DNA of 48,852 nt from a virus: positions 1 through 48,852 of IMG/VR virus record IMGVR_UViG_3300010399_000003, one strand, 5' to 3'. The notes beneath the pieces were generated by a model. The model had not been told where the DNA came from. It worked only from the letters and a program-made list of their open reading frames with translations, and ran no database searches. Shown here in pieces: positions 3,494 to 48,852 of the stretch. A program made the translations under genes and the position numbers. Each line of letters opens with the position of its first letter. Position 1 is the first letter of the stretch.

Positions 3494-3504
3494 GGATTCG
3501 CACC

Positions 3505-3639
3505 ATGCTCCGAAGATTTTGGGACTGGCTGTGGTCAGAGAAAGCAGATTTTGTATCGCAACAATGGCTGGAAGAAAATCGTAGCAAGTCGCGACCTGAT
3601 AATCCGAAGTCAGTCTCGTCGCGGCGCGAGATTGAATAG
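3505..3639 (+). CDS. small hypothetical protein
   Basis: Internal ATG of track ORF 3424..3639, preceded by GAGGA. 44 aa, Trp-rich N-terminus. Confidence 0.35.
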   Translation: MLRRFWDWLWSEKADFVSQQWLEENRSKSRPDNPKSVSSRREIE

Positions 3640-3651
3640 AAAGGATTTCCA

Positions 3652-4512
3652 TTGTTACATACAGTGCTCAACCTGACGCGGCCGTTAGTGATGCTCGACG
3701 AAGAAACGACTGGCTTGAATACAAACGAAGCCAGGATCGTCGAGATCGGTTTTCAAATCTGGACCGCGGCTGGTTTGGAGAAGGAATGGCGATCCCTGAT
3801 TAACCCGGAAATTTCCATCCCTGAAGAAGCCTCGAGAACCAACCATATCACCGATGCATCGATGAAATTATGTAATCGATGTGCAAAAGATCGTGAATCG
3901 CATCCATTGCCGGATTGCGAGGAATTCAAACCTGTTCCACGATTTCGGGATATTGCGGCAAGTTTGGCGAAAGGATTTACGAATGTCGATTTCGCCGGCA
4001 AGAATGTGCGATATGATCTTCGTGTGCTGTCGTCAGAGATGGTTCGTGTTGGAGTGCCGTGGAATTACGTCGGTGCCCGCATTATTGATGCTGACCGACT
4101 CGAACAACTCGGTGAGCCCCGAACGTTATCACATCTCTACGAAAAACACACTGGCAAGAAAATGGAAAACGCCCATGAGGCACTTGCTGATGTGCGAGGG
4201 ACTACAGAAATTATCGTGGCGCAAATGCGCAAATACTCTGCGCTGCCTAGATCACTCGATATGTTGCATGAATTGCAGTGGCCAGGCTGGATTGACGAGA
4301 ATGGCAAATTCAAATTCGTCAATGGTGTGGCTACGTGCATGTTTGGGAAGTGGCGTGATCGTCCTATGAAAGCCATCGAACCAAGTTACTGGGATTGGAT
4401 CTGTCGCTCTGACTTCCCACCTGACATCAAAGCACTTGCTGAGCAAGCGAAACTCGGCAAATTTCCGGAGGCGCCAAGTGGCGAGAGTAAAGACGTTTCT
4501 GGTACATCCTGA
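3652..4512 (+). CDS. DnaQ/DEDDh-type 3'-5' exonuclease
   Basis: Exo I VMLDEETTG, Exo II GKNVRYDLRVL, Exo III HEALADVRGT. TTG start preceded by AAGGA. Confidence 0.8.
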   Translation: MLHTVLNLTRPLVMLDEETTGLNTNEARIVEIGFQIWTAAGLEKEWRSLINPEISIPEEASRTNHITDASMKLCNRCAKDRESHPLPDCEEFKPVPRFRDIAASLAKGFTNVDFAGKNVRYDLRVLSSEMVRVGVPWNYVGARIIDADRLEQLGEPRTLSHLYEKHTGKKMENAHEALADVRGTTEIIVAQMRKYSALPRSLDMLHELQWPGWIDENGKFKFVNGVATCMFGKWRDRPMKAIEPSYWDWICRSDFPPDIKALAEQAKLGKFPEAPSGESKDVSGTS

Positions 4513-4771
4513 GAAAGGTCCACACGATTTGGAAATCGCACGATTCATCACCGAGTGTGAAGAGAAGTTCTACGTCAACGTCGTGACGCAATACCTGCCG
4601 GTGCCGACACCTCGCGTGCTTGTAATCGTGACCAAACTCGACGAGAAAGATCCGACACAACCACAATCGCAGCTTCAACCACAACAACCATCGACGCGCG
4701 CAGAAAGGACACCACATGACCGGCACAATCAAGCGGCTCATTCAGGACAAGCAGTTCGGGTTCATTCGTGA
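4478..4771 (+). CDS. hypothetical protein (start and extent uncertain)
   Basis: GTG preceded by GGAGG at 4466-4470. The 3' part overlaps the cold-shock gene in another frame and is Gln/Pro-rich. Confidence 0.3.
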   Translation: MARVKTFLVHPEKGPHDLEIARFITECEEKFYVNVVTQYLPVPTPRVLVIVTKLDEKDPTQPQSQLQPQQPSTRAERTPHDRHNQAAHSGQAVRVHS

Positions 4772-4919
4772 CGAGAAGGGGAAAGAATACTTTTTCCATT
4801 CGTCCGGATTGAAGAATGCACAGTTCGCAGCGCTGCAGGAAGGCCAGGAAGTGACCTTCGAAGATACGGATGGCGTCAAAGGACCGAGGGCGGAAGATAT
4901 CTATGTTGGTCGCGCCTGA
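4716..4919 (+). CDS. cold-shock domain protein (CspA family)
   Basis: 67 aa with RNP1-like QFGFIR and RNP2-like EYFFH, plus a typical CSD length and layout. Confidence 0.85.
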   Translation: MTGTIKRLIQDKQFGFIRDEKGKEYFFHSSGLKNAQFAALQEGQEVTFEDTDGVKGPRAEDIYVGRA

Positions 4920-6537
4920 ACCGGATTTCACCAAGTGCCGTCTTGTCCAATTGGCAGACGGCACTTGGTCCGGCGTGAAAGAGCACGTCAAGCTCGGTGT
5001 GCGAGCTTTGCTAGCTAATCCCTATTTCGGACTCTTGGACGAAATGGGAGCTATGAAGTCAGCACAAACAATCATCGCCGCGCAGTTTCTCTTCGAACAG
5101 GGCGTCATTGATCAGGTGTTGGTCGTTGCGCCAAATTCGGTTCGTGATGTATGGTTCGATGAGGAACTCGGTGAATTGCAGAAACATCTCTTCACACCGT
5201 CTATCATCCAACTCTATCATAGTCGTACAAGGGAGTGGTATTTCCAACCGGAAAAGAAACCGCACTTATTCTGGATCATCACGAATTATGAGTTCATTCG
5301 TGCAGAACCGCGGCTCGCTGAATTGTTGCCGCTAGTCGGGCCGAAGACGCTCCTCGTACTTGATGAATCCAGCGCGGTCAAAAGTTACGGCGCGAAGCAA
5401 ACACAAGCCTGTTTCAAACTCCGAAAGCAATGCGGTCGTATCGTTATCCTGAATGGCACACCCATTGCAAACAACCCGATGGATATGTTTAGTCAGGGTA
5501 ATCTCATGCATCCGGATATTCTCGACTGTCGTGGGATTACGCATTTCCGAGCGCGATACGCAATCATGGGCGGTTACGTGGTGCGGACTGCGTGGGGCAG
5601 CCATCCGACACAGATTGTTGGTTATCAACATCTTGATGATCTTCAACGTCGTTTCGCGCCATATGTGTTACGACGCTTGAAACGCGATTGTCTCGATTTG
5701 CCACCAGTCTTGCCGGCTGTAACGCTGACAGCAACGCTCACCCCTGCCGAATGGAAAATTTACAAGGAGATGCGTGATGACCTCGTGGCGTGGCTATCGG
5801 ATGCGACTGTTTCTGTGGCTGCTCAAACGATTACAAAAGTCCTTAGACTCTCGCAAATCACCAGTGGGTTCATCGGCGGTTTGGAACCAGAAATCCTCGA
5901 GGATTTGAATGACGGAAGACCAGATTGGCTTCCGGCTCTTGGGAATCCTAATGGTGGTTATCGTCATCCTTTGGATCCTGCTGACACGACCCGAGAGATA
6001 GGACGGGCCAAGCTCGATGTGTTCTATGAGTGGCTCGACGAACAATTCGAAGCAGATCACAACCTCAAGCTCCTGATCTGGTGCCGCTGGATTCCAGAGC
6101 TTCAACGGTTGCTCAAAGAGCTCGCCGAGCGATATCCAAAAGCGGAACTCGGATGTATTGCTGGGAAGGCGTTGCTTGGCAGTACGAAGAATCAGGAACG
6201 ACAGACTGCGCTCCGATTGCTCGATCCTCGCACTGCGCCTGCTGGCCCGGTGCTAGTTGGCGGGACGTATGGAACTGGTGCGCTGGGACTGAATCTAACT
6301 GCGTGTCATACGATGGTCAAGATGAGTCACGACTATTCATATTGGAAGGCGATTCAGACAGATGCACGCATCGATCGACCTGGTCAGACACAACCTGTAT
6401 CACAATTCGACATCGTTGCAGTTGGTCCTCAAGGGCAAAAGACGATAGATCACGTGATTGTCAAGGCGCTTCGTTCGAAAGAAGAAGTGGCGGATTACAC
6501 GACTTCTGCATGGATTCACGCTCTGACAGAATCGTAA
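4903..6537 (+). CDS. SNF2/RAD54-family helicase
   Basis: Motifs VLVVAPNSV (Ia), LVLDESSAVK (II), ILNGTPIANNPMDMF (III), VLVGGTYGTGALGLNLT (V), QTDARIDRPGQTQPV (VI). ATG 4903 has a better SD than 4870; both overlap the csp stop. Confidence 0.85.
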   Translation: MLVAPEPDFTKCRLVQLADGTWSGVKEHVKLGVRALLANPYFGLLDEMGAMKSAQTIIAAQFLFEQGVIDQVLVVAPNSVRDVWFDEELGELQKHLFTPSIIQLYHSRTREWYFQPEKKPHLFWIITNYEFIRAEPRLAELLPLVGPKTLLVLDESSAVKSYGAKQTQACFKLRKQCGRIVILNGTPIANNPMDMFSQGNLMHPDILDCRGITHFRARYAIMGGYVVRTAWGSHPTQIVGYQHLDDLQRRFAPYVLRRLKRDCLDLPPVLPAVTLTATLTPAEWKIYKEMRDDLVAWLSDATVSVAAQTITKVLRLSQITSGFIGGLEPEILEDLNDGRPDWLPALGNPNGGYRHPLDPADTTREIGRAKLDVFYEWLDEQFEADHNLKLLIWCRWIPELQRLLKELAERYPKAELGCIAGKALLGSTKNQERQTALRLLDPRTAPAGPVLVGGTYGTGALGLNLTACHTMVKMSHDYSYWKAIQTDARIDRPGQTQPVSQFDIVAVGPQGQKTIDHVIVKALRSKEEVADYTTSAWIHALTES

Positions 6538-6633
6538 GATTGCGCTTTACAATCAAGCCCACTTACGGTATAGTCGCGTTCGGTTCAGTCGCCCGGAACA
6601 AGGTCGGGTTTGACGAACCTGAGGTCTGGAAAG

Positions 6634-6897
6634 ATGACCGACAGAAACGACCCTTCCACGCCAAAGACTTCCCCAACCGCATCCACAGTCTCAAATACTT
6701 GCGACGACCTGAGCCCACGCGGCGCTGACGGTCGAAGCCGACAGGCTGCTTCGGATGCGGTTGGGGACCGCGGATTATGCGAAGAATGCGACGGTCGCGG
6801 GAAAATCCTCGACGCACCTGATCGGGTGCTCGATGGTCGTGCGTATTGGACGACGTGTCCAGAATGCCTCGGGACTGGCTATGCCTCCAAAAGTTAA
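6634..6897 (+). CDS. small protein with DnaJ-type CxxCxGxG zinc-finger repeats
   Basis: CEECDGRG and CPECLGTG repeats. ATG 6634 is preceded by GAGG. Confidence 0.55.
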   Translation: MTDRNDPSTPKTSPTASTVSNTCDDLSPRGADGRSRQAASDAVGDRGLCEECDGRGKILDAPDRVLDGRAYWTTCPECLGTGYASKS

Positions 6898-7294
6898 GCC
6901 AATCGTAATCGCTGCTAGCGAAGCGGCACGTAGATCGATTTCTGCTGAACAGCAACGAAAGAAGATCGCACAACGAATGGCCGTATTAGCGAAACGTCAG
7001 CATGAGACTGCTGTTGCAAAAGCCTTAGCGAGTGTTCCGCGGCACCTCAAAGAAATCAACGATCAAATTCAAGCAGCGATCAAGACTGGTGACAATGCAG
7101 TTACTGCGCATTTCAACGTAAGTCCGACGTCTGGTCCGGTGTGTGAAGCGATCACCAAAGAATTGAAGAAACTTGGTTATCAGGTGGCTGCTGAATTTCG
7201 TGAATACGATGAAAACATGGGCGATTTCAATGCGCCCTGTAACGTGCACGTTTCAGAAGTCATTTTGACGATATCGTGGAAAAGAACTCCATGA
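6881..7294 (+). CDS. hypothetical protein
   Basis: Internal ATG of track ORF 6755..7294 that overlaps the upstream stop by 17 nt. Helical Lys/Ala-rich N-terminus. Confidence 0.5.
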   Translation: MPPKVKPIVIAASEAARRSISAEQQRKKIAQRMAVLAKRQHETAVAKALASVPRHLKEINDQIQAAIKTGDNAVTAHFNVSPTSGPVCEAITKELKKLGYQVAAEFREYDENMGDFNAPCNVHVSEVILTISWKRTP

Positions 7295-36582: not shown

Positions 36583-37020
36583 TTAGCGGACCAGTGAGCT
36601 ACCAGCATTTATGGCCGTCTTTTTCGGCCGATCCAAACGATTGAAGAACTTTTCCACTTCACGCATGAGGAACGAAAGATAGTAGGTGTAGACTTCCTCG
36701 CTGTCAGGCGCGAAGCGCACGCCGCGGTCATTCAAGATATGGATGACTGCATGCAAGCACTCGTGTCCAACGGTTTGCGATTCCGCACGTGTGGAGGGAA
36801 ACCACAGAAACCACTCACGCACGCCATCGCAGCCATCATTGATGAGCTCAATCATTTTACCGAGTGGTTCCGGGCCATCGACGGCCGTCGTATTGTCCTT
36901 GTAGTGACACCGATACCACTCGGCAAATTCGAGATACGGACCAACGCACATGTGAATCGTTGCGCGGAACACTGGATCGCGGACTGTAAAGGTCCGCAGC
37001 ACCCGGCGCGATTGAGTCAC
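36583..37020 (-). CDS. hypothetical protein with HExxH motif
   Basis: VGHECLHAVIH. ATGA-type 4-nt overlap with the upstream gene. Confidence 0.5.
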   Translation of the reverse strand: MTQSRRVLRTFTVRDPVFRATIHMCVGPYLEFAEWYRCHYKDNTTAVDGPEPLGKMIELINDGCDGVREWFLWFPSTRAESQTVGHECLHAVIHILNDRGVRFAPDSEEVYTYYLSFLMREVEKFFNRLDRPKKTAINAGSSLVR

Positions 37021-39458: not shown

Positions 39459-40769
39459 TTAGGAAACCCACTCATAACCAGTGATCCAAACATAGCCGGT
39501 GCCAGCACCAACACGGAAATACATCGCCTGCATCTCAGTGTGAAATTCCGACGAAAAGCCAACAACCATGCTATTCGCTGCGGCTGGTTGTTGCATAATA
39601 ACATTATTGCGGAGCGTTGTTGAACGCATGTCATAGGCATCTGGAACCGGACCAATGCAAACACTTGCACCGTTCGTTGTATTTTGACCAGCAGCCCACA
39701 CTTTAGTTGGTCCATACGGAATTACCGTTGCCAGATCCGTGAGTACTTCAATAGTTGACGTTGAACCATTCACGATGAGATGATCATTTAATAATTGAGC
39801 GCGTCGGTCAGTTTGAATGAACGCGTCGAAGTTGCTCGAACCATCATTGTAAACATAGCCAACCTTTGTATTCTTTGTATAACCAGTTGGCATCGTCGGC
39901 ACACTATCGTTAAGGCGAGTGTGTGTTTTGAATGTATAATCGGCAGTTGCACTTGAAGTCCAAGTCGTTCCATCGTAGCCATAGAACTGACCATTTGCGT
40001 AAACACTACCTCCTGCGGAATAGTGCCACGAAACATAGTTGACAGCACTCGTGGTATAATCACCTTGTAGAACAATGTAATATGTCGTGCCGGAGGTCAG
40101 AGTTGCAGGTGATCGGAAGATGAATTGTACCCACTGACTAGACGTGCTGAATGCATTAGCGTCGAGTTTGTCCGACGTCGCGAGTGGCGTTCCGGATGGA
40201 CTGCCACTGGAATCTGCTTCAATAGTCAACCATACACGACCTGCTGGATTACCAGCACGAAACATCAGAATATCAACTGCGTCCAGAGGACCAGTCGTGC
40301 CTGGCTTAAAGCTCTGACCTTCCTTGACGTTGGTTGTGGCACCAAATCGGAGTGGGCTATTTGTTGTCTGTGCCGTTTGCGATTGATCAACAGGTGCGGA
40401 TTTCGCCTTGTGTAAAAGCAAACCCTTAGTGCCATCATCTTTAGCAATGGCGTGCACTTCGTATCGAGTTGACGCAGCCTCGCTACCAGTGTCAAGGCCG
40501 TTTGCGCCAGAAACAGTAATATCAGCGGTCTGACCATCCCAATTACTCAGACGAGTTCCATCACTCATCACGATTTCATCCGCCTTTAACCAGACTCGAC
40601 TTGCAGCCAAGTTAAAGTCAGGATGTGTCCGCAAGCGTAGACCACGAAAAGTTTGTAACAGATGGTGTTCAGATCGAAGTGAGTTAAGATTATCACGAAT
40701 ATGGGTATTCAGCATCGAGGCTGTCACCATTTCGCCAGCGTTCCACGTACGAGGATTTGTCCAAGCCAT
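39459..40769 (-). CDS. tail fibre protein
   Basis: The N-terminus MAWTNPRTWNAGEMVTASMLNTHIRDNLNSL resembles conserved phage fibre N-termini. The remainder is Gly/Thr/Ser/Asn-rich. TAATG coupling to the upstream gene. Confidence 0.5.
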   Translation of the reverse strand: MAWTNPRTWNAGEMVTASMLNTHIRDNLNSLRSEHHLLQTFRGLRLRTHPDFNLAASRVWLKADEIVMSDGTRLSNWDGQTADITVSGANGLDTGSEAASTRYEVHAIAKDDGTKGLLLHKAKSAPVDQSQTAQTTNSPLRFGATTNVKEGQSFKPGTTGPLDAVDILMFRAGNPAGRVWLTIEADSSGSPSGTPLATSDKLDANAFSTSSQWVQFIFRSPATLTSGTTYYIVLQGDYTTSAVNYVSWHYSAGGSVYANGQFYGYDGTTWTSSATADYTFKTHTRLNDSVPTMPTGYTKNTKVGYVYNDGSSNFDAFIQTDRRAQLLNDHLIVNGSTSTIEVLTDLATVIPYGPTKVWAAGQNTTNGASVCIGPVPDAYDMRSTTLRNNVIMQQPAAANSMVVGFSSEFHTEMQAMYFRVGAGTGYVWITGYEWVS

Positions 40770-41923
40770 TATCTTGCCCTCTCTCCGAGGTCAACGCGTG
40801 CAAACATCGGATCATCGTAGGAGTAAACAAGCACCTGCCGTGCGTTGGCTCGTGCCCAGATTTCTAGATCCGGCATCTCTTCAAAACGACGTTGTGATAC
40901 AATGAAAGTATCACAATTCGTAACTTGTTCACGAATCATTGGATCTGCAAGATTGCCACACACAAGAAATCCGCGGCCACGGACTTTATCGTAATCCATT
41001 TCAATGCCCATGATCGGCATTTGAAAATCATCGCGAATCCGTTCAAGCAATTTTCCATTACCAGCGCCAAGATCAACGACCAAACCTGCAGGTGGTTGCA
41101 CATTGAGTTCCGCCAAAATCATGGCATGAGCTCGTTCCATGTTGGCTTCGGAATTGAATCCGTTTTCGGTCCAATCTTTCGATCGCATGAGTTTGAGTGG
41201 TTTTGTTGGTTGTTGCTGATATGGAAAGACAAGACCGCGTGCACCTTCGTCTGGATACGAAGTGCCAATTCGACGCACCACACGATTTCCTAATACAGTC
41301 GTTCGCGTCGAGACTTTCAAAATCGGATACTTGATTTCAGCGAGACCGTTCTTTGCGGACCACTCGATTGGCCAACTTAGAATATCGCGTGCCCATCCAA
41401 GTTCTTTCCGTGGCCACAAGGCATCCAAACTTTGAGCGAACAACCATGTATCATCACAGGTGAACGAGCATGGTAGATGCGGCACTAATCGAACACCAAG
41501 CCAACGACCAAGAATATTGCACTCGAGTGGACCGGAGACATGTAACGGATCTGGACCAGCCATATCCCACGTCGTATCGACATTTCCATTGACTTTCACT
41601 CGCTGAAAAAACTGCCGACAACATCGCGGATAGCGCAGCAATCGACCAACCGCGTCATCATCTCGTTTCCGATAGGCTCTCGCAAGTTCCTCAGCCAACG
41701 GTCCGACTGCAAAACGATCCTGATCCACAATCAGTGCCGGTGACAAGCCAGATTTCTGCACGAGCTTTTCACCGTAGACTAATGCCACAGATCGCAGTCC
41801 GAGTCGCACGGATGCCAATTCCACTTCCAGCCACGCGTTCGATACAGCCTGCAAACGTGGTCCCCAAATTTCACGCGCCTTGCTATTCGCCCACATGATT
41901 CGCGTCGAATCAGAAGGAGGCAT
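40769..41923 (-). CDS. two-domain protein: Cys-containing N-terminal domain plus C-terminal class I SAM methyltransferase domain
   Basis: Motif I LVVDLGAGNGKLLE, followed by GIEMD and CGNLAD. N-terminal YPRCCRQFF...HLPCSFTCD. Start at the Met preceded by GGAGA (41923), overlapping the radical SAM stop by 14 nt. Confidence 0.6.
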   Translation of the reverse strand: MPPSDSTRIMWANSKAREIWGPRLQAVSNAWLEVELASVRLGLRSVALVYGEKLVQKSGLSPALIVDQDRFAVGPLAEELARAYRKRDDDAVGRLLRYPRCCRQFFQRVKVNGNVDTTWDMAGPDPLHVSGPLECNILGRWLGVRLVPHLPCSFTCDDTWLFAQSLDALWPRKELGWARDILSWPIEWSAKNGLAEIKYPILKVSTRTTVLGNRVVRRIGTSYPDEGARGLVFPYQQQPTKPLKLMRSKDWTENGFNSEANMERAHAMILAELNVQPPAGLVVDLGAGNGKLLERIRDDFQMPIMGIEMDYDKVRGRGFLVCGNLADPMIREQVTNCDTFIVSQRRFEEMPDLEIWARANARQVLVYSYDDPMFARVDLGERAR

Positions 41924-43214
41924 CCGAATCTCCATGCATCACAGTCGTACCAGAGTCGCCATGAACAACATACGGATTATCTGCGTGTTGATATCCGTCA
42001 GGTGCATCCCAATGATCACCATGAGGATGATCCTGTAAAATCTCTGGTTCCTTACCCGATAACACGGATTGCAGAGCTTCGTGAATGGAAATGTTCTTGC
42101 CGGATTCCCAGAAGCGCAACATAACTGCGTCCACACGCTGCCGTAATTCTGGTTGTTTCGAAAGCGGCACGCGACCTTCTTGAATCAGATCAGCTTCCAT
42201 CCGTTCGAACAGCGCCATCCAACTCGCGCAATGTTCACTGCGATTCCGCCAATCACCGTCCTGTGCGGTGCCAGGACACTGACCTTTGCACGCAAAGAAA
42301 AACCTACATCCCTGACAACCAAGTTCCTCTTGAGGTGTATGGTAGAGTGCGACTTGCCGATCGTGGCTCACGACATCGGCCTTCCGCCAATCCACACCTT
42401 CTTTGTTCATACGACCGCAATTCGAGGATTCACCCTGACCATTCACGCCGCGCACCGCGGCAGTCGTGTAAGGATCACAAGCATTCCAGATACATGTCAC
42501 CTGTTGATCTTCAGCCATGAGCAATTTGCGCATGTCATTGAAGATATCAAAATCAATTCCGGGATGCATTTTCTGAAAATGATACAACGATAACAAGGCA
42601 GCCGTGTTTTCTTCATTCGTTAATGCCATCGTCGAACGCACACGATCATTCTCAACTTCGAGCAGATGGATTCGCATACTGCGAATTCCGAGCTTGTTCA
42701 GGGTGGTGAACCACTGCATGAGTCGCCAAAGTCGTTCGCCAACAGCATTTCCTCGATAGAGCGTCGTGATGATACTTGGTACGATCTTCACTTTGAGCAA
42801 TTTATGTAATGCAACGAAGCTCGCATGCGTTGCTGCACGAGTCTTTTCCAAGGTGCCAGCCCAACGACTGTCGTTTAGTTCGTCTGGACCATCTAGTGAC
42901 AAACCGACATGCACTTTGTATCGCTGAAATAGTACAATGTGTTCGTCGGTAATCAGCGTGCCATTGGATTGGATGCTGTTTGAACCAAATCGCTCAAGCC
43001 CGTAGGCAAAGATCTCTTCAAGAATCGGTAATGGTGTAAGGAGTGCTTCGCCGCCGAAAATGGAAAATTGACCACCCTCGCGTTCAAGACCTGCTTTCAT
43101 CTTTTCGAAATTGTAACCTTGTGTGATATTGCCAGCTTCACGCATTTGATTCTGATAGCAATAATCACATGATAGATTACATGCCACGCCAACAGGCGTC
43201 AATTCAATAGACAT
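41910..43214 (-). CDS. radical SAM enzyme with SPASM-type C-terminal domain (anSME/peptide-maturase-like)
   Basis: CNLSCDYC (CX3CX2C), IFGGEALL, then the auxiliary-cluster pattern CIWNAC...NCG...CQGCRFFFACKGQC (CX2CX5CX3C). 1-nt TGATG overlap with the upstream tail gene. Confidence 0.85.
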   Translation of the reverse strand: MSIELTPVGVACNLSCDYCYQNQMREAGNITQGYNFEKMKAGLEREGGQFSIFGGEALLTPLPILEEIFAYGLERFGSNSIQSNGTLITDEHIVLFQRYKVHVGLSLDGPDELNDSRWAGTLEKTRAATHASFVALHKLLKVKIVPSIITTLYRGNAVGERLWRLMQWFTTLNKLGIRSMRIHLLEVENDRVRSTMALTNEENTAALLSLYHFQKMHPGIDFDIFNDMRKLLMAEDQQVTCIWNACDPYTTAAVRGVNGQGESSNCGRMNKEGVDWRKADVVSHDRQVALYHTPQEELGCQGCRFFFACKGQCPGTAQDGDWRNRSEHCASWMALFERMEADLIQEGRVPLSKQPELRQRVDAVMLRFWESGKNISIHEALQSVLSGKEPEILQDHPHGDHWDAPDGYQHADNPYVVHGDSGTTVMHGDSDASF

Positions 43215-45418
43215 CAGTTTAAATCCCCATGAGCAATATCACTGTGTTGATCACCATGTGGCGTATCGGTATGCAACACATCCGTGTGAGCAACGTCGCC
43301 GTGCGCAGTATCAGCATGTGCTGAATCGGAATGTGCTGTATCTGAGTGAACACCGTCTGCATGAGCCGCAATATCAGAATGTGCTGTATCAGAATGTGCT
43401 GTATCGCCGTGACTAACGTCAGCGTGCGCCACGTCAGAATGTGTGTTGACTAAGGCGACATCCGAATGCGCAGTATCCGAATGTGAATCTACGTGTGCCG
43501 AGTCACTATGTGAATCACTGTGCGAATCGGTATGCGAATCACCATGCGCAATGTGACCAGGTGAATCGAAAAATTCTTCACGATCAACGTGCGAATCAGA
43601 GTGAGAATCTTCGTGTGCGATATCAGAGTGAGCTACGTCGGAGTGGGAATCAGAGTGAGCTACGTCGGAGTGCGCCGTATCACCATGCGTATCACTATGT
43701 GCAGTATCAGTATGCGCGCGGTCTGAATGAGCAGCGTCGCCATGAGCAACGTCTGAATGAGCGACGTCACCGTGCGTTCCAGCATCTGCATGTGCAGCAT
43801 CACCATGGGCAACGTCCTGATGTGCATCATCAGTATGCGTATCGGAATGAGCTATGTCTCCGTGTGCAGTATCCTGATGCACGTCAGAATGAGCCACATC
43901 TGTATGACCAACGATCAAACCAAATCCAAGTCGCGTTGATCCATCAAGTTCGGAAAGTCCCTCGATTTCCAATAACCAAAATGCCGTTGAATCAGCAGGG
44001 ACAAGTGTAAATTCGGTTCGGAGTGTATTATCTTGTTCCGTCTCAGTGATTGAATTAATGTAGAATGAACGCGTGATACCAGTCACGTAATCCGTCAGAC
44101 CAATACGATCACTGATGTCACGATCAAGGCTTCTTGCTAATTCTAATGCATCGCTATTCAAGCCAACAAAACGAACGAGACCCGAAACTTGTGTTATCGG
44201 AAAGGCCATAGAAAAAACGAAATATTGCGCAGCTTCCAATCCAAATCGTGGATCAGCTTGATACACCATATCAATCTGTTGCACGATTGGACCATACTGT
44301 GCAATACTCGTATCGTCTTTCCACTGCATGACAGTCGCACCATAATCATACAATGGTTTCCCGCGTTGTTGTAGTTTCGTCAAATAGCCAGTCACACCTC
44401 CGTTGTACGTCACAGAAAATTCTGTCGCGTTTCCAGAAAAACCAATCGTCACCGACACAAAACCTGTCAGATTCGTTCCGCTTCCATCACTCGCCGTATT
44501 TGCTGTGTAATCGGTAGTCGCTGTGATTGGTGCTAAATCAGCAGCGCCAACACGAACGTCTGGATTATCTGGATCTGTCCAAGGCCCAAGAATTGTAATA
44601 GTCTGGCCAGGGATTAGCTCCATTGGTTGTTTCATCGAGAACATGACAACGTAGCTGGAGCCAGGCACCCGAGGATGAACAGTTGATTGAACCTTGTTGA
44701 TCAGACTAGTACGATCTCGATCGGCGACAAACCCAAAATGATCATCATACACATCAGCATTAGTTGCACTGATTGCACGACGGGTTCTGGATTCATACAC
44801 AACAGTTCCGTCACCACGTATCCAGCAACGATCTAAACCACTAATGCATAGACGATAAATTTCATCGCGAAGCACTGTCTGTTCATCTCGTGTACGATCC
44901 AGTGAATACGGAAAAATATCAGCACTCAAATCCATTTCCAATGCGTCAGGCTGGCTGACGATCGGAATTGAATCAATGAGGACCTGGAAAATCTCGTCAC
45001 CTCGTTTGTTGATTTGTACTGGAAGATTTTCTAATCTCGTTCGCTGTGCAACATCCATCCAATCGACAACTTCACACGATACCGTACGAGGACCGTGCCG
45101 ACCAGTGATTGGAGTGATTGAATCTAACACGCCAGTAAATCGGATGATACTGCCGATTCGATAGCGCACACGGATATTCAATTCAAATCCAGATCTCCTA
45201 TTTTCATGATCTGGACTGTAATATCCGATTAATCCAACACTGTTTCGTTCGCTATTGTCGAGTGAAAAGGACAGAGTGCCGATATCGGCTACAAGATCAA
45301 GAATGGAAGAACCAGGGAGACCACGATGCCACGTGATGCCAGGACCACGAAGCACATCGGTAACGGTCGTCCAACCATTACCACGGCCGCTGAATTCCAT
45401 TTCAATGATGCCACTCAT
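43214..45418 (-). CDS. tail (distal tail/tip) protein with C-terminal His-x-Asp repeat domain
   Basis: Follows the tape measure gene with a 4-nt overlap. The N-terminal ~500 aa is beta-rich, the position typical of Dit/tail-tip proteins. The C-terminal 231 aa is almost entirely (A)H-x-D-x repeats. Confidence 0.6.
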   Translation of the reverse strand: MSGIIEMEFSGRGNGWTTVTDVLRGPGITWHRGLPGSSILDLVADIGTLSFSLDNSERNSVGLIGYYSPDHENRRSGFELNIRVRYRIGSIIRFTGVLDSITPITGRHGPRTVSCEVVDWMDVAQRTRLENLPVQINKRGDEIFQVLIDSIPIVSQPDALEMDLSADIFPYSLDRTRDEQTVLRDEIYRLCISGLDRCWIRGDGTVVYESRTRRAISATNADVYDDHFGFVADRDRTSLINKVQSTVHPRVPGSSYVVMFSMKQPMELIPGQTITILGPWTDPDNPDVRVGAADLAPITATTDYTANTASDGSGTNLTGFVSVTIGFSGNATEFSVTYNGGVTGYLTKLQQRGKPLYDYGATVMQWKDDTSIAQYGPIVQQIDMVYQADPRFGLEAAQYFVFSMAFPITQVSGLVRFVGLNSDALELARSLDRDISDRIGLTDYVTGITRSFYINSITETEQDNTLRTEFTLVPADSTAFWLLEIEGLSELDGSTRLGFGLIVGHTDVAHSDVHQDTAHGDIAHSDTHTDDAHQDVAHGDAAHADAGTHGDVAHSDVAHGDAAHSDRAHTDTAHSDTHGDTAHSDVAHSDSHSDVAHSDIAHEDSHSDSHVDREEFFDSPGHIAHGDSHTDSHSDSHSDSAHVDSHSDTAHSDVALVNTHSDVAHADVSHGDTAHSDTAHSDIAAHADGVHSDTAHSDSAHADTAHGDVAHTDVLHTDTPHGDQHSDIAHGDLN
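43217..43909 (-). repeat. coding tandem repeats (12-15 nt periodicity) encoding the HxD repeat domain
   Basis: Protein residues 504-734 begin GHTDVAHSDVHQDTAHGDIAHSDTHTDDAHQDVAHGD and end HGDQHSDIAHGDLN. About 45 H-x-D triplets by hand count, interrupted once by REEFFDSPGHIA. Confidence 0.9.
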
Positions 45419-48400
45419 GCCGTCCGCAATCCGACTAAGCCAGTAGCGATCGCACGAGACATAGCACGCGGCAGCGATGTTTTCAAATCTGAGCGAAGAC
45501 CGTTGATAGAATCGACGACTTCCTCATTCGACGGCATCTCCGGGAAACCACCCTGATTCAGTTGACGCAAACCTTCATTGCCGAGTCGTTCCATGCCTTT
45601 CGTTGTAACAATGCCCTCGCCAGGTGTAAGCATCGTCGCCACTGTATCCGAACCTCTCGCAGGCCACGGACCTTCGAGCACCGGTCCGCCAACGGCCAAG
45701 TATTGCACACCGGATGCCGTGACGCGACCGCCACGCGATGCGTAATCAGGGATGTCCGGCGCAATGTAATGACCTTCAATCTGGATATCGAAATCCTTGG
45801 GGATTTTATCCAGTTCCGTCTTCATATTCGCGGCAGTCGTTTTAGTCTGTTGCTCCATTGCACGAAGACCTTCAGGGATCTTCGCACCGAGCGCGTCACC
45901 GATTGCCATCAGCACGTCAAGGATCTTTTGATTATCCGATTTCGCCTGTTCACCGATGAGCCCGGATTGCACGCCTTGATCAATCAATGCTTGCGTCGAT
46001 TCATCGACGCTGTAGCCGTAGCGCTGCTGCATCTCCCAGATTGTTTGGAGATCACCACGCATCGCAAGCATCACAGTGTCACTGGAATAACCCTGTGCCA
46101 CCAACGCTTCTTCAGTCGCGGCAATCTGACCGGCCAGACCTGAGAATGTCTCCTGATTCAGGATACCAGCGTTGCTCAGACCGATCATACCAGCGGTGTA
46201 GCCTTCAATGGATTCGAGTGCCGGACCCGCGATTTCATCATTCGCGAAATCAACCATGTTCTTGATGAAATCGAATGCAGCACCTCCAGTGTAACCAGTC
46301 GCTTCCAACTGCGCCTGCAACAATTCGACGTTTGGACCAATCGCCCTGACCGACTCGATAAATGATTTGCCAGCCTCCATGTTCGCCGAGACAATACCAG
46401 CCAACGAACTAGCAACTGCACTCGCGGCTTCTTGTGAATGAAGTCCGGTCACTTCGATAATTCGATCATTGTTCTCGATCTGATCATGCAACGCCATCAA
46501 GCCCTTGTATTCAGCTTCGTTCTTCGCAATGATCTGATCAATCTGGATTTGAATTGCCATTTTATGCCCAAGATCCGCCTTGGCATACTTGGCTTCGAGA
46601 TCCATGATTTTCGCGATGTCTAGGTATTCATCCTGATCCATTTCCGCGCGGCGCTTGGAGAATTCCGCTTGTTGTTTCGCCCGATCTGCGTATGCATTAC
46701 CGGTGATTCTCAATGCCGCACTGAAACCAGTCTGCGCATTAGTTAGCTGACCGGATACATATGCGGCGATCTCTTTCGATTGAGTTCCGTATTGTCCGTT
46801 CAGCTTGATGATTTCAACAAGCTGTTTATCCAACATCCCAAGATTGTTGGTACCAGCTTGTGCAAATTGCGCAAAGTTTTCATCCATGACTTTCGCACCT
46901 TGTGCGATCGTCATTTGATGTGTTTCAATCAGTGAGAACACATCGTGGAATCTATCCGTCATTTGTGCTAGATTATCTTTTGAGAGACCTCCGGCTTCCT
47001 TGATGATATCAGATAAATGCGATATTGCCGCGGCCTGCCGACTTCCTCCGAAATCTTCCTTTGCAGATTTTGCAATCGCCTTCGCAAGATCGTCTGAAAT
47101 CTTCTCACCAAAATCCCGCCCGACTTCTTCCGCAGCCTTGGCCCACGCAGGTTTTCCACGAATGATGCCAACCACCAAACCAGCCGCTGCGCCGACAGCC
47201 ATTCCATAAGGCCCGAACATCGAACCAGCCTGAGCCCCAGCCATCATACCACCAAGTGCGTTACCGGCGGCAGATGAATGTGCGGAAGTCGCGTCCCAAA
47301 CCGCAATTGCACCTTGAGCGATACCAGCTGCGGTTTGTACACCAGCAGCGAACTTCTGCATCCTGTCGGCATTATCATTGAAAATCGTGCTCAGCGGTCC
47401 GAAGTGACCACCAAGTTCATGACCATCAATACCAAGTTGTTTTGATTGCTTATGCGCACTTTCAAGTCCGACAACAACTTGTCCAACTCCGCTGAGTATC
47501 GCACCCATCATCCCGCCGGTCACTTGACCAAGTTTGGTGAAATACTCGGAGATCGTCGCAAGTGACTCAGATGCCCGTCTTTCTGCAGCTGCCAATTTAT
47601 CGAGTTTGATTCTCAGTTCGTCGATTTCTGTAGACTTACGACCGACATCTTCCAAACTTAGCGCCATGTTATAGAAGCCTTGTAATGGCGCAGGAATACT
47701 CCGTTCAACCATTTTAAGTCCAGCAGCAACTTCCACCTGCGTCCGAACCCATTTCAATTCAGTCTCGTCGACTTCTAAGAGTTTTGAATGGAATCCCTTC
47801 AATTCACCGAATTGAATCTTAACGAGCTGCGCACCAATTTTCTTTTGCTCAGCCCATTGTTTTTCTGCATATACAACGCTTTCAACAATGGGTTTTGTTA
47901 CGCTGTATGCCGCGGCGATTTCAGCAATTGATTTACCACGTGCATGATCAAAGGCGATTCCTTCATATAACGTCGCGCCAATTTTGGCCATGACGTTTTG
48001 ATAATCGCCAAGTTTTGCATTGTAATTCGTCAAAGCCGCTTCGATTTTTGTCTGTTCGGCTGCGGATTTCTTGAGTTCCGTGATGTAGGCTTTCGTTGCC
48101 GCTTCTGTCGCACCAGTGACTTTGAGGATTTCCTTTATCGACTCGGTGTTCATAGCCACGCGAGTATATTCTTTTTGTGCTTCAGTCAGCGGCGTTAACG
48201 CAGCATCTTTCAAAGATTTCAATTTCTGTGACATCAAATCGGCACCAGCCGCACTGTTCGCCATGGATGCTGCAACAGCTTGTAGTGCAGGATGCCCAGC
48301 CAGAGCCTCTTTATTTACTCCGGCGATAGCAACTCCAACCTGTTTCATTAATGGCGTCGAAAAATTATTCGCTTTTGCCGTCGCCATCACTGAACGTTCA

Positions 48401-48852
48401 AGTTCGTCGAGTTGCGTCGCCGTGTGTCCAGAATTACTTGATAGATCTGAAATCGCTTCTTGTAAATCTTTCGCCCCACCGTGCGCTTTACGAAACTGTT
48501 CGTTATTGAAAGCAATTGCTTCGGCGTAGCGTTTGGCTTGATCTGTTTCGGTTGACGACCAACCATCTTTCAGAGCTTTATTCAATACGAATTGTTTGGC
48601 TGCAGCTGTTTCTGTTTGTAATTGTGCTTCTGCAGTCGCCTGCCGCCAACTTGTATAAGCCAAAGTCACGCCAGCAATCGCAGCCGCGATTGCCACAAAT
48701 GGATGTGCCAAAATGATATTGTAGAGTTTGGTAAAAGCTGCACCGAGATTCGCCAAAGCTGCTTCACCGAGTGTTCCCCATCCAAACGCTTGGGTCATGA
48801 CACTCAGTTTGAAAATTTCAGCGGCAAGACTCGCTATCCAACCACCAAGTTT
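45415..48852 (-). CDS. tail tape measure protein (5' end possibly outside window)
   Basis: More than 1100 aa, Ala/Gln/Lys-rich and helical, with hydrophobic N-terminal and Gly-rich central segments. C-terminal GSDTVATMLTPGEGIVTTKGMERLG block. The frame upstream of ATG 48798 has no stop up to the window edge. Confidence 0.8.
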   Translation of the reverse strand, partial: KLGGWIASLAAEIFKLSVMTQAFGWGTLGEAALANLGAAFTKLYNIILAHPFVAIAAAIAGVTLAYTSWRQATAEAQLQTETAAAKQFVLNKALKDGWSSTETDQAKRYAEAIAFNNEQFRKAHGGAKDLQEAISDLSSNSGHTATQLDELERSVMATAKANNFSTPLMKQVGVAIAGVNKEALAGHPALQAVAASMANSAAGADLMSQKLKSLKDAALTPLTEAQKEYTRVAMNTESIKEILKVTGATEAATKAYITELKKSAAEQTKIEAALTNYNAKLGDYQNVMAKIGATLYEGIAFDHARGKSIAEIAAAYSVTKPIVESVVYAEKQWAEQKKIGAQLVKIQFGELKGFHSKLLEVDETELKWVRTQVEVAAGLKMVERSIPAPLQGFYNMALSLEDVGRKSTEIDELRIKLDKLAAAERRASESLATISEYFTKLGQVTGGMMGAILSGVGQVVVGLESAHKQSKQLGIDGHELGGHFGPLSTIFNDNADRMQKFAAGVQTAAGIAQGAIAVWDATSAHSSAAGNALGGMMAGAQAGSMFGPYGMAVGAAAGLVVGIIRGKPAWAKAAEEVGRDFGEKISDDLAKAIAKSAKEDFGGSRQAAAISHLSDIIKEAGGLSKDNLAQMTDRFHDVFSLIETHQMTIAQGAKVMDENFAQFAQAGTNNLGMLDKQLVEIIKLNGQYGTQSKEIAAYVSGQLTNAQTGFSAALRITGNAYADRAKQQAEFSKRRAEMDQDEYLDIAKIMDLEAKYAKADLGHKMAIQIQIDQIIAKNEAEYKGLMALHDQIENNDRIIEVTGLHSQEAASAVASSLAGIVSANMEAGKSFIESVRAIGPNVELLQAQLEATGYTGGAAFDFIKNMVDFANDEIAGPALESIEGYTAGMIGLSNAGILNQETFSGLAGQIAATEEALVAQGYSSDTVMLAMRGDLQTIWEMQQRYGYSVDESTQALIDQGVQSGLIGEQAKSDNQKILDVLMAIGDALGAKIPEGLRAMEQQTKTTAANMKTELDKIPKDFDIQIEGHYIAPDIPDYASRGGRVTASGVQYLAVGGPVLEGPWPARGSDTVATMLTPGEGIVTTKGMERLGNEGLRQLNQGGFPEMPSNEEVVDSINGLRSDLKTSLPRAMSRAIATGLVGLRTA

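What the first reader, a model, noticed from the sequence alone, without database searches (positions are those of the whole stretch)
40769..45418. Radical SAM/SPASM maturase-like enzyme and a methyltransferase embedded in the tail operon, translationally coupled to a repeat-bearing virion protein
**Gene order on the - strand.** Tape measure, tail protein ending in the HxD repeat domain, radical SAM/SPASM enzyme, Cys-rich/SAM-MTase protein, tail fibre.

**Junctions.** They overlap by 4 nt, 1 nt (TGATG), 14-26 nt and 1 nt (TAATG). These are therefore not a stray moron but part of the structural operon.

**Why it matters.** Radical SAM enzymes with a SPASM domain (CX3CX2C plus CX2CX5CX3C, both present) are best known as maturases of peptides or proteins. 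Examples are the anaerobic sulfatase-maturating enzyme and RiPP crosslinkers, which typically act on short repeated motifs encoded next door. As far as I recall, TIGRFAMs also defines a His-Xaa-Ser repeat protein (HxsA) paired with radical SAM maturases (HxsB/HxsC).

Here the adjacent candidate substrate is a His-Xaa-Asp repeat array of about 230 aa fused to a tail protein. This suggests enzymatic post-translational modification (crosslinking, oxidation, methylation) of a phage virion component. I am not aware that this has been described.
Basis: partly seen in the sequence, partly recalled or inferred. Interest (0 to 1): 0.88.

Follow-up and report, generated by a model that had tools for sequence, protein, structure and literature searches.

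The report
Enzyme pair modifying phage tail repeats
A phage tail protein ends in 45 His-x-Asp motifs and is followed by a radical-SAM enzyme and a partner protein; the same three-part cassette recurs in over a hundred phages and bacteria, which suggests the enzymes chemically modify, probably cross-link, a virus-particle protein, something not shown before.

Summary
Four overlapping minus-strand genes encode a tape measure protein, a 734-aa tail protein with 45 H-x-D motifs in its last 229 residues, a radical SAM/SPASM enzyme, and a DUF483 + class-I methyltransferase protein. A fibre gene follows.

- In 126 loci carrying the rSAM, a DUF483 gene is adjacent or fused in 122.
- A dense H-x-D array lies on the same strand in 104, usually abutting the pair.
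- Tail-protein homologues without an array lack both enzymes. Where the enzymes are present, the array sits on a different fibre gene directly upstream of the rSAM.
- Relatives add aKG-HExxH peptide beta-hydroxylases and PqqD domains, which are hallmarks of RiPP pathways.
- The closest solved structures are anSME and the triceptide cyclophane synthase ChlB.

The most likely chemistry is His-to-Asp(C-beta) three-residue cross-links (inferred, untested).

The three-gene module was noticed in Thermus phages in 2024 but ascribed to DNA modification. The repeat-substrate logic and its reach appear undescribed. The cassette also occurs on Tat-signal and giant bacterial proteins. I rate it a new variant of a known kind, of high interest.

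The parts
45415..48852 (-). Tape measure protein (context). The reading frame is still open at the window end.
   Evidence: phrog_167 E 2e-4. In related contigs the synteny is tail-tube, chaperone (Phage_tail_T), long ORF, then this tail protein. The frame is open upstream of the ATG at 48798. An identical contig calls it as 1503 aa.
43907..45418 (-). N-terminal ~504-aa carrier domain of the tail protein, encoded directly after the TMP. It is a tail-tip/baseplate-position protein with no known family.
   Evidence: Homologues occur bare (~520 aa), with beta-helix or LamG C-termini, or with H-x-D arrays. No hit in Pfam, PHROGs, NCBIfam or PDB.
43220..43906 (-). H-x-D repeat array (residues 505-733, 45 motifs). 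This is the proposed substrate.
   Evidence: 45 motifs observed against 9.4 +/- 2.5 in shuffles. Across 81 arrays, 96% of His are in register and Cys is 0.1%.
41910..43214 (-). Radical SAM/SPASM enzyme, anSME/triceptide-synthase-like, with no N-terminal RRE domain.
   Evidence: PF04055 E 2e-14. NCBIfam gives full-length but sub-threshold matches to anSME, DynA and PapB. AF2 pLDDT 83. Foldseek hits anSME 4k39 at E 7e-13 and ChlB 9gm3 at 1e-12. 305 clusters at 50% identity have E<=1e-30.
41913..42032 (-). The rSAM's own C-terminal tail, which carries five H-x-D motifs (HGDHWD..HAD..HGD..HGD).
   Evidence: Conserved in alignments A1 and A3. At least two motifs in 55 of 107 unfused homologues. Disordered in the model.
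41216..41935 (-). DUF483 domain, the obligate partner. C105, C106, C156, C160 and H153 are invariant.
   Evidence: PF04467 at 27.7 bits against a 25-bit cut-off. Invariant columns in A2. Adjacent or fused to the rSAM in 122 of 126 loci. No solved homologue found.
40772..41173 (-). Class-I SAM methyltransferase domain (motif I VVDLGAGNG). Accessory.
39459..40769 (-). Fibre-like protein downstream (context). Its N-terminus MAWTNPRTW is shared with H-x-D carriers in other phages.
   Evidence: phrog_17105 and choice-of-anchor R. L128:8936-9907 and L137:7995-8951 have the same N-terminus plus an H-x-D array.

Best explanation
The region is a three-part protein-maturation cassette inserted in a siphovirus-type tail module. 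The parts are a substrate array of H-x-D motifs fused to the C-terminus of the tail protein encoded just after the tape measure, a radical SAM/SPASM enzyme, and a DUF483 partner protein that here carries a class-I methyltransferase domain.

**Shown**
- The parts exist as described.
- The enzyme belongs to the SPASM peptide/protein-maturase group.
- The three parts are inherited together across more than 100 phage and bacterial loci, while the array hops between unrelated carrier proteins.

**Inferred**
- In the infected cell's cytoplasm, before tail assembly, the rSAM acts on each motif.
- The most likely reaction follows triceptide (three-residue cyclophane) synthases. The 5'-deoxyadenosyl radical abstracts a C-beta hydrogen from Asp (position 3). 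The carbon radical adds to the imidazole of His (position 1; C2, or a ring nitrogen as in dynobactin). The auxiliary clusters then re-oxidise the adduct.
- Each motif would lose 2 Da, so up to 45 small rings would form.
- DUF483, with four invariant Cys and one invariant His, is needed for this step or for a second one. The methyltransferase adds an optional methyl group.
- The product would be a rigid, protease- and heat-resistant His/Asp-rich rod at the tail tip, probably metal-binding. It sits where relatives carry beta-helix or lectin-like receptor-binding domains.

**My odds**
- About 0.8 that the array is the enzymes' substrate.
- About 0.4 for the specific His-Asp cross-link.
For: **Enzyme class**
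- Radical_SAM Pfam hit; CX3CX2C motif at residue 12; eight conserved SPASM cysteines.
- Full-length alignments to anSME, DynA and PapB, and partial ones to the cyclophane formers AmcB, YhhB, GrrM, XyeB and FxsB.
- Profile against PDB sequences: anSME 5e-19, ChlB 7e-13.
- The model superposes over ~380 columns on anSME and ChlB.

**Linkage**
- The co-occurrence counts are those given in the summary.
- 83 of 309 flanking same-strand ORFs are H-x-D-dense, against 5 of 2487 opposite-strand ORFs.
- rSAM-DUF483 fusions are frequent.

**Covariation**
- All 10 loci with the window-type tail domain plus an array have the enzymes.
- Homologues with a beta-helix C-terminus or bare (L126/127, L130, L134-136) have no array and no enzymes.
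- Bare homologues in L128/129 and L137 have the enzymes, with the array on a separate fibre ORF ending at the rSAM start.
- Thermus phage Cumys gp13 is an H-x-D array protein directly upstream of its rSAM.

**RiPP hallmarks in relatives**
- aKG-HExxH peptide beta-hydroxylase above its curated cut-off. A phmmer search seeded with three such proteins finds matching ORFs in 28 distinct loci (30 counting L128/L129), about 24 of them strongly; some of the weak hits may match only the PqqD part of one seed.
- PqqD domains fused to the DUF483/MTase protein or to the hydroxylase.

**Which residues matter**
- Only His and Asp are fixed: 96% of array His are in register.
- The x position is G, T, S, V or A.
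- Cys is 0.1%.

**Precedent**
- His-C2 to residue-3 C-beta cross-links on HAA, HNR, HTK (PMC11499958) and HAS motifs (PMC12912966).
Against: - No mass or structural data exist, so the reaction type is inferred from distant relatives. All NCBIfam matches are 5-20% of their family cut-offs.
- The best single match is anSME, an oxidase rather than a cross-linker.
- According to PMC12912966, all characterised triceptides are proteolytically released from their precursors. Here the array belongs to a 734-aa structural protein. Whether the arrays on other carriers, or the protein as a whole, are processed afterwards was not tested.
- The DUF483 role is unknown, and no triceptide pathway I read about needs it.
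- Half of the rSAMs carry H-x-D motifs in their own tail. This could point to metal binding or docking rather than catalysis on these motifs.
- 22 of 126 loci showed no dense array. Some of these are truncated contigs and some have only short peptides with 2-7 motifs.
Confidence: 0.6

Rival explanations
1. Same substrate, different chemistry. The rSAM (with DUF483) modifies the H-x-D motifs without forming a His-Asp ring. Candidates are oxidation or decarboxylation of Asp at C-beta, epimerisation to D-residues, or a modification of the imidazole. The methyltransferase then methylates His or Asp.
For: - The top sequence and structure match is anSME, which oxidises a side chain after C-beta hydrogen abstraction.
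- Relatives carry aKG-HExxH beta-hydroxylases, so Asp/His side-chain oxidation is part of the wider pathway.
- The methyltransferase domain is intact.
Against: - The invariant His at exactly i-2 from Asp (96% in register) is what a two-residue reaction predicts. A single-residue oxidation would not need a fixed spacing.
- anSME's own motif (Cys/Ser-x-Pro-x-Arg) is absent, and Ser is not conserved at any position.
- Thioether chemistry is excluded because the arrays have no Cys.
Confidence: 0.25
2. The rSAM/DUF483 pair modifies DNA or nucleotides, as proposed for the Thermus phage 'rSAM module'. The repeat protein is an unrelated neighbour.
For: - Kolesnik et al. report homologues in cyanobacteria next to deazapurine DNA-modification genes (PMC11437467).
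- The rSAM core gives weak viperin matches: NCBIfam 4e-9, PADLOC pVip 2e-11.
Against: - The viperin matches cover only the generic core (residues 11-140), and viperins lack the SPASM domain. The full-length matches are all peptide/protein maturases.
- The array is the third conserved element and moves with the enzymes between unrelated carriers.
- PqqD peptide-binding domains and peptide beta-hydroxylases are fused or adjacent in relatives.
- A cyanobacterial locus, L038, still has a short ORF ending in HVDFHVDF directly upstream of the rSAM.
Confidence: 0.05
3. There is no enzyme-substrate relation. The H-x-D array is simply a metal-binding or adhesive low-complexity tail domain. The enzymes are co-transferred for another reason, for example to load or assemble a metal site, or to act on a host target.
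For: - His and Asp are classic metal ligands.
- Many rSAMs carry an H-x-D tail of their own, which could be a shared metal-mediated docking element.
- All carriers recognised by sequence features are extracytoplasmic: tail tips or fibres and Tat-signal proteins.
Against: - The strict all-or-none covariation and immediate adjacency or overlap are hard to explain without a direct functional dependence.
- The irregular 3-9-residue spacing argues against a regular fold and for independently recognised short motifs.
Confidence: 0.08

Closest known systems
Triceptide (three-residue cyclophane) RiPP pathways: rSAM/SPASM synthases such as HaaB, HtkB, YhhB, MicB, XyeB and ChlB
   Same: - An rSAM/SPASM enzyme without an N-terminal RRE domain.
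- The substrate is encoded next door and consists of repeated aromatic-x-x motifs, with His accepted at position 1 (HAA, HNR, HTK, HAS).
- ChlB is the second-best structural match.
- aKG-HExxH beta-hydroxylase and PqqD partners occur in relatives.
   Different: - All family models score far below their cut-offs.
- No H-x-D motif turned up in my literature searches.
- Arrays hold 11-90 motifs on proteins of up to about 2,600 aa, including virion proteins, rather than on precursors from which a peptide is proteolytically released.
- There is an obligate DUF483 partner.
Anaerobic sulfatase-maturating enzyme (anSME)
   Same: - Best sequence and fold match, with the same domain layout.
- It acts on a full-length protein rather than a leader-bearing peptide (established knowledge).
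   Different: - 73.7 bits against a 349-bit cut-off.
- No Cys/Ser-x-Pro-x-Arg motif in the array.
- No sulfatase nearby.
'rSAM module' of Thermus phages Cumys and phiMa (Kolesnik et al. 2024, Viruses 16:1410)
   Same: - The same cassette: rSAM 49% identical, DUF483 33% identical, and an H-x-D array protein (gp13) directly upstream, at the end of the baseplate/fibre genes.
   Different: - The paper treats the third gene as a protein of unknown function and suggests DNA modification. In the passages I read it does not mention the repeats or protein modification.
- The Thermus DUF483 proteins lack the methyltransferase domain, and the carrier domain is different.
His-Xaa-Ser system (HxsA repeats with HxsB/HxsC rSAM maturases and HxsD; TIGR03976-03979)
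   Same: - The concept: a His-x-residue repeat protein next to rSAM/SPASM maturases.
   Different: - HxsB matches only the rSAM core (28 bits against 370).
- One rSAM here, not two.
- Asp rather than Ser at position 3.
- DUF483 instead of HxsD.
PapB (ranthipeptides) and DynA (dynobactin)
   Same: - They rank second (DynA) and fourth (PapB) among the NCBIfam hits and are full-length matches.
- From established knowledge, PapB abstracts hydrogen from Asp C-beta in repeated Cys-x3-Asp motifs, and DynA links a His ring nitrogen to a C-beta two residues away. Both half-reactions needed here therefore have precedent.
   Different: - The arrays contain no Cys, so no thioether is possible.
- Scores are far below family cut-offs.
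Covalently cross-linked virion proteins (HK97-type capsid isopeptide bonds)
   Same: - The idea of covalent reinforcement of a virion protein (established knowledge).
   Different: - HK97 cross-links are autocatalytic and in the capsid. Here a dedicated radical enzyme pair would act on a tail protein.

Membership tests
Radical SAM / SPASM-domain maturases (superfamily level) | CX3CX2C motif that binds the SAM cluster | tested here: met
   C12, C16 and C19, conserved in homologues. PF04055 at 54.6 bits against a 29.5-bit cut-off.
Radical SAM / SPASM-domain maturases (superfamily level) | C-terminal SPASM domain with 7-8 Cys for two auxiliary clusters, including CX2CX5CX3C | tested here: met
   C241, C246, C266, C300, C303, C309, C313 and C329 are invariant or near-invariant. 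The fold superposes on anSME over ~380 columns.
Anaerobic sulfatase-maturating enzyme (TIGR03942) | Score above the curated equivalog cut-off | tested here: not met
   73.7 bits against 349.45.
Anaerobic sulfatase-maturating enzyme (TIGR03942) | Substrate motif Cys/Ser-x-Pro/Ala-x-Arg in a sulfatase | tested here: not met
   The array is H-x-D with no conserved Ser or Cys. No sulfatase is in the window.
Triceptide synthases (3-residue cyclophane-forming enzymes) | rSAM/SPASM enzyme whose adjacent substrate carries aromatic-x-x motifs | tested here: met
   45 H-x-D motifs directly upstream. The adjacency is conserved in about 100 loci.
Triceptide synthases (3-residue cyclophane-forming enzymes) | Membership of a characterised maturase family (XyeB, GrrM/OscB, FxsB, YhhB or AmcB models) | tested here: not met
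   31-52 bits against cut-offs of 310-450.
Triceptide synthases (3-residue cyclophane-forming enzymes) | Product: aromatic carbon to residue-3 C-beta bond, -2 Da per motif | not testable with these tools
   Needs co-expression followed by MS/NMR.
Triceptide synthases (3-residue cyclophane-forming enzymes) | Product released from its precursor by proteolysis; PMC12912966 states that all characterised triceptides are cleaved ahead of the first cyclophane motif | tested here: inconclusive
   The arrays sit on a 734-aa tail protein here, and on proteins of up to about 2,600 aa or behind Tat-type signals elsewhere. Sequence cannot show whether any of them is cleaved afterwards. A few loci have short peptides (L052, L038).
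His-Xaa-Ser system (HxsA/B/C/D) | HxsB and HxsC paired rSAM enzymes above their cut-offs | tested here: not met
   HxsB scores 28.1 bits against 370, on the rSAM core only. There is a single rSAM gene in the cassette.
His-Xaa-Ser system (HxsA/B/C/D) | His-x-Ser repeats in the substrate | tested here: not met
   Position 3 is Asp in all 45 motifs.
Thermus-phage 'rSAM module' (rSAM + DUF483 + third protein) | Homologous rSAM and DUF483 genes adjacent, with a third co-inherited gene | tested here: met
   49-53% and 30-33% identity to Cumys, phiMa and phiLo. Cumys gp13 is an H-x-D array protein.
Prokaryotic viperins (pVip) | Full-length viperin match and no SPASM domain | tested here: not met
   The matches cover residues 11-140 only. 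A SPASM domain is present.

The most novel reading that the evidence does not exclude
A RiPP-type radical SAM enzyme, working with a DUF483 partner of an unknown kind, installs tens of His-Asp cross-links in a structural protein of a virus particle. The same machinery would decorate Tat-signal lipoproteins and giant proteins of unknown location in many bacterial phyla. This would be the first enzymatic radical cross-linking of a virion protein and the first 'protein-scale' triceptide, with up to 90 rings per chain. It would also define a new family of rigid, poly-chelating His/Asp rods used at cell surfaces and phage tail tips.
Probability: 0.4. Interest if true: 0.92.

Novelty: new variant of a known kind. 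Interest (0 to 1): 0.8.

Why it matters
**For phage biology.** Tail proteins are thought to mature by folding, proteolysis or autocatalysis. A dedicated radical enzyme pair acting on a tail-tip protein would be a new layer of virion assembly. It may explain stability or host-binding properties; the cassette is present in thermophilic Thermus phages.

**For enzymology.**
- It would extend rSAM/SPASM cross-linking from the short aromatic-x-x motifs of characterised triceptide precursors to arrays of up to 90 motifs on large proteins.
- It would give a first functional handle on DUF483.
- It defines a testable family of about 300 clusters at 50% identity.

**For annotation.** H-x-D arrays are missed or called on the wrong strand by gene callers, and the module has been read as DNA modification.

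**Practical route.** Cultured Thermus phages (Cumys, phiMa) on T. thermophilus HB8 make the hypothesis directly testable.

Tried and rejected
**Led nowhere**
- Pfam, NCBIfam and PHROGs on the tail protein, on isolated arrays and on a 25-member alignment of its N-domain gave nothing. A profile of the N-domain against PDB sequences gave nothing.
- The AF2 model of the rSAM leaves its H-x-D tail disordered, so nothing can be said about docking.
- A single-sequence scan of viral contigs found one locus only. The alignment-based scan was needed.
- The promoter/terminator scan was at chance level.
- Literature searches for triceptide+phage, rSAM+tail fibre, HxD, and SPASM+bacteriophage found nothing relevant.

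**Considered and rejected**
- Recent DNA slippage: the DNA repeats are degenerate.
- A pentapeptide-repeat or other regular solenoid: the spacing varies from 3 to 9 residues.
- Thioether (sacti/ranthipeptide) chemistry: Cys is 0.1% of the arrays.
- Formylglycine formation: there is no conserved Ser/Cys and no motif.
- Membership of the Hxs system, anSME or viperins: cut-offs and defining features are not met.
- 'Always a prophage': Cohnella and Sphaerisporangium loci are flanked by ordinary metabolic and regulatory genes.

Full report
**1. What is in the window.**

Between 39459 and the right-hand end, the minus strand carries a tight run of genes:
- A tape measure protein, 45415-48798 as an ORF. 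Its frame is still open at the window end, and an identical public contig calls it as 1503 aa.
- A 734-aa protein, 43214-45418.
- A 434-aa radical SAM enzyme, 41910-43214.
- A 388-aa protein, 40769-41935.
- A 436-aa fibre-like protein, 39459-40769.

The junctions are ATGA, TGATG, a 26-nt overlap (14 nt from the second ATG, which the public gene call uses) and TAATG. The plus-strand part of the window encodes replication and nucleotide-metabolism functions: helicases, thymidylate synthase, ligase and a polymerase exonuclease. This is therefore a phage or prophage with its tail genes on the opposite strand. A consensus promoter/terminator scan of the block is at chance level. 'One operon, translationally coupled' thus rests on the overlaps alone.

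**2. The repeat array.**

- Residues 505-733 of the 734-aa protein contain 45 H-x-D motifs, mostly 4 or 5 residues apart.
- All 45 histidines of this segment are in that register. The preceding 504 residues have five His and no H-x-D.
- Shuffling the segment gives 9.4 +/- 2.5 motifs, never more than 20 in 10,000 trials.
- At the DNA level the repeats are degenerate, with 62-83% matches. The pattern is therefore maintained on the protein and was not generated by recent slippage.
- No Pfam, NCBIfam or PHROG model matches the protein or the isolated array.

**3. The enzymes.**

*The rSAM.*
- It has CX3CX2C at residues 12-19, so there is no N-terminal peptide-recognition domain.
- It has eight conserved cysteines in a SPASM domain, including CX2CX5CX3C.
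- Against NCBIfam it aligns end to end with anSME (1e-20), DynA (6e-19) and PapB.
- It aligns in part with the cyclophane-forming maturases AmcB, YhhB, GrrM/OscB, XyeB and FxsB.
- All of these scores are far below the family cut-offs.
- A profile of the family finds anSME (5e-19) and the triceptide synthase ChlB (7e-13) as the nearest solved proteins.
- The AlphaFold model has pLDDT 83, with the last 40 residues disordered. It superposes on those two structures over ~380 columns, ahead of CteB, SkfB and the viperins.

*The partner protein.*
- It has two domains (AF2 pLDDT 91.5).
- The N-terminal ~240 residues are a DUF483 domain (PF04467, above cut-off). Cys105, Cys106, Cys156, Cys160 and His153 are invariant across 45 homologues.
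- No solved relative could be found for this domain.
- The C-terminal part is a small class-I SAM methyltransferase with an intact motif I.

**4. The decisive evidence: the three parts travel together.**

tblastn against deposited phages found the rSAM and the DUF483 gene side by side in Thermus phages Cumys, phiMa and phiLo. In Cumys the gene directly upstream of the rSAM (gp13, 'hypothetical protein') is a 343-aa protein whose last ~250 residues are an H-x-D array.

I then collected 80 loci from bacterial and archaeal genomes and 42 from viral contigs using an alignment of rSAM homologues, and analysed them with scripts.
- A DUF483 homologue lies immediately downstream of the rSAM or is fused to it in 122 of 126 loci.
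- An ORF with at least 8 H-x-D per 100 residues lies on the same strand in 104 of 126. Most end at the rSAM start codon or begin right after the DUF483 gene.
- Among ORFs of at least 100 aa, 83 of 309 same-strand ORFs within 300 nt of the pair are H-x-D-dense. The figures are 29 of 2284 for same-strand ORFs further away and 5 of 2487 on the opposite strand.
- Several 'negative' loci are truncated contigs, or have short peptides with two to seven motifs directly upstream. Examples are L052 (...HRDHYDHTDRGYHADYIVHQDQH) and L038 (...HVDFHVDF).
- Over 81 dense arrays, 96% of His are in register. The x position is G/T/S/V/A, Cys is 0.1%, arrays hold 11-90 motifs, and 71 of 81 sit at the C-terminus of their protein.

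**5. A covariation test within one protein family.**

The N-terminal 500 residues of the window's tail protein have homologues of three kinds:
- with an H-x-D array;
- bare, at about 520 aa;
- with a beta-helix or LamG C-terminus.

All ten loci of the first kind carry the enzyme pair. I looked up the contigs of seven homologues without a fused array.
- The beta-helix form (L126/127) and four bare forms (L130, L134, L135, L136) have no rSAM, no DUF483 and no H-x-D ORF.
- Two bare forms (L128/129, L137) do have the rSAM and the DUF483/MTase gene. In both, the ORF ending at the rSAM start is a fibre-like protein (N-terminus MAWTTPRTW, like the window's fibre gene) that ends in an H-x-D/H-D-D array.

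The array and the enzymes are thus present or absent together, whichever carrier protein the array is attached to. This is the pattern expected of a substrate and its maturases. It is hard to reconcile with a chance neighbour.

**6. The wider system.**

*Carriers of the array.*
- The window-type tail protein.
- Small phage proteins with three W-I-E-G...Y-I-D hairpin repeats (Cumys and a dozen viral contigs).
- About 20 bacterial proteins that consist of a twin-arginine-type signal (F-S/T-R-R-x-L-L-R-A-G), followed in nine of them by a lipobox-like Cys, and then the array.
- Giant proteins of 1,000-2,600 aa with no recognisable domains.

*Setting and accessory genes.*
- The Cohnella faecalis and Sphaerisporangium perillae loci are flanked by ordinary genes, not phage genes. 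The cassette is therefore a general bacterial system that phages have recruited to tail proteins.
- A Tat signal fits modification in the cytoplasm before export (inference).
- In related loci the gene after the pair is an aKG-HExxH-type peptide beta-hydroxylase, above the curated TIGR04267 cut-off in the three copies tested, once fused to PqqD. A phmmer search seeded with those three finds matches in 28 distinct loci, about 24 strongly.
- Two DUF483/MTase homologues also carry PqqD.
- Both elements are typical of RiPP pathways. The triceptide synthase ChlB is cited as a fused rSAM/aKG-HExxH protein (reference list of PMC12912966).
- The methyltransferase motif is found in about 63 of 116 complete DUF483 ORFs and is missing in the Thermus phages. 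It is therefore an accessory.

*Family size.*
- Scanning 1.84 billion representatives gives 305 clusters at 50% identity with E<=1e-30. Many are 600-1,100 aa long, that is, fusions.
- Neither Pfam nor NCBIfam has a model for the array, and the rSAM reaches no curated NCBIfam family cut-off.

**7. Mechanism.**

*Shown:* the enzyme class, the conserved clusters, the linkage to the array, and the invariance of His and Asp at i and i+2.

*Inferred:* the reaction. Three arguments point to His and Asp as the reacting residues.
- They are the only fixed residues, and their spacing is fixed.
- Cys is absent, which excludes thioethers.
- Ser is not conserved, which excludes anSME-type formylglycine formation.

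The closest precedent is the triceptide reaction. There an rSAM/SPASM enzyme abstracts the C-beta hydrogen of residue 3 and joins it to the aromatic ring of residue 1, and His is accepted at position 1. Known cases are His-C2 to C-beta on HAA, HNR and HTK (PMC11499958) and on HAS (PMC12912966). From established knowledge, hydrogen abstraction from Asp C-beta (PapB) and a His-nitrogen to C-beta link over the same spacing (DynA) are also known. Both enzymes are among the top matches.

I therefore propose one small His-Asp ring per motif, -2 Da each. DUF483 would be needed for the same step or a coupled one; its Cys4/His site suggests a metal or redox role. Methylation would be an optional extra.

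The function of the product is speculative. One possibility is a stiff, protease- and heat-resistant, poly-chelating rod at the position where relatives carry receptor-binding domains. A His cross-link that creates copper binding has been described in a lanthipeptide (PMC10206099).

**8. Rivals.**

- *Same substrate, other chemistry* (oxidation, decarboxylation, epimerisation, imidazole modification). This remains quite possible. anSME is the top hit, and hydroxylases belong to the wider pathway.
- *DNA modification*, the published suggestion for the Thermus module. This is disfavoured by the maturase relatives, the PqqD and HExxH partners, and the co-inheritance with the array. The viperin-like matches cover only the generic rSAM core.
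- *A purely metal-binding array with unrelated enzymes.* This does not explain the all-or-none covariation.
- *An unexplained observation.* About half of the unfused rSAMs carry two to six H-x-D motifs in their own disordered C-terminal tail. Here it reads HGDHWD...HAD...HGD...HGD. This may be self-modification, a docking element or a metal site.

**9. Novelty and verdict.**

Kolesnik et al. (2024) already noted that rSAM, DUF483 and a third gene form a module in Cumys, phiMa and some prophages, and that DUF483 is fused to rSAM or methyltransferase domains elsewhere. They suggested DNA modification.

I found no paper that links the module to H-x-D repeats, to protein modification or to virion proteins. 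The library does not cover most subscription journals.

The enzyme belongs to a known kind (SPASM maturases with adjacent repeat substrates). The following appear new:
- the motif;
- the obligate DUF483 partner;
- the size and nature of the substrates;
- the tail-module setting.

Its interpretation is supported at the level that sequence analysis can reach. The chemistry awaits mass spectrometry, for which the cultured Thermus phages offer a ready system.

Noticed in passing
window 41913-42032 (rSAM residues 395-434): The rSAM's own C-terminal tail contains five H-x-D motifs (HGDHWD..HAD..HGD..HGD). At least two such motifs occur in 55 of 107 unfused homologues. The tail is disordered in the AF2 model. 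It could be self-modification, docking or a metal site; unexplained.
   Followed up: partly
L128:12443-13228, L011:2701-3540, L040:11659-12882, and matching ORFs in other related loci: An aKG-HExxH-type peptide beta-hydroxylase follows the rSAM-DUF483 pair. The three copies tested are above the TIGR04267 cut-off, and the L040 copy is fused to PqqD. A phmmer search seeded with them finds matches in 28 distinct loci, about 24 strongly. No copy is present in the window.
   Followed up: partly
e.g. L027:10694-11908, L044:10697-12184, L017:10703-11293, L005:7400-7987: About 20 bacterial H-x-D proteins consist of a twin-arginine-type signal (F-S/T-R-R-x-L-L-R-A-G), followed in nine of them by a lipobox-like Cys, and then 15-84 H-x-D motifs. 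This suggests export after cytoplasmic modification.
   Followed up: partly
L128:9269-9877 (minus) versus L128:8936-9907 (plus): The public gene call places a 202-aa antisense ORF (VTVTVVIVV...) over an H-x-D array and leaves the true plus-strand ORF uncalled. H-x-D arrays are likely under-annotated in metagenomes.
   Followed up: yes
L002 (Thermus phage phiLo) 14810-19154 and 7815-11513: phiLo has three consecutive H-x-D-rich ORFs (phiLo_135-137, with about 20, 101 and 72 motifs). They are convergent with its rSAM/DUF483 pair, and IS605-type transposase genes lie upstream of that pair (phiLo_143/144 immediately upstream, phiLo_153 further up).
   Followed up: no
window 48799-48852: The tape-measure reading frame is still open upstream of the ATG at 48798 and runs off the window. 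An identical Logan contig calls the gene as 1503 aa.
   Followed up: partly
window 39459-40769: The fibre-like protein starts MAWTNPRTW. The same N-terminus is used by the H-x-D-carrying fibre ORFs of L128 and L137 and by short fibre genes in nine related loci. It also matches the choice-of-anchor R domain (NF041539, just above its cut-off).
   Followed up: partly
L048 (Cohnella faecalis) 3050-7216 and 10044-11333: In a non-phage setting, a 1,388-aa protein of unknown function ends in a PHVDT-type H-x-D array. A 240-aa ORF and a fused rSAM-DUF483 protein follow, and then a gene with a delta-endotoxin N-terminal domain.
   Followed up: no
window 36583-37020 (minus): A small 145-aa protein (phrog_1365, unknown function) contains an HECLH (HExxH-like) motif. 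It does not match the aKG-HExxH hydroxylase model.
   Followed up: partly
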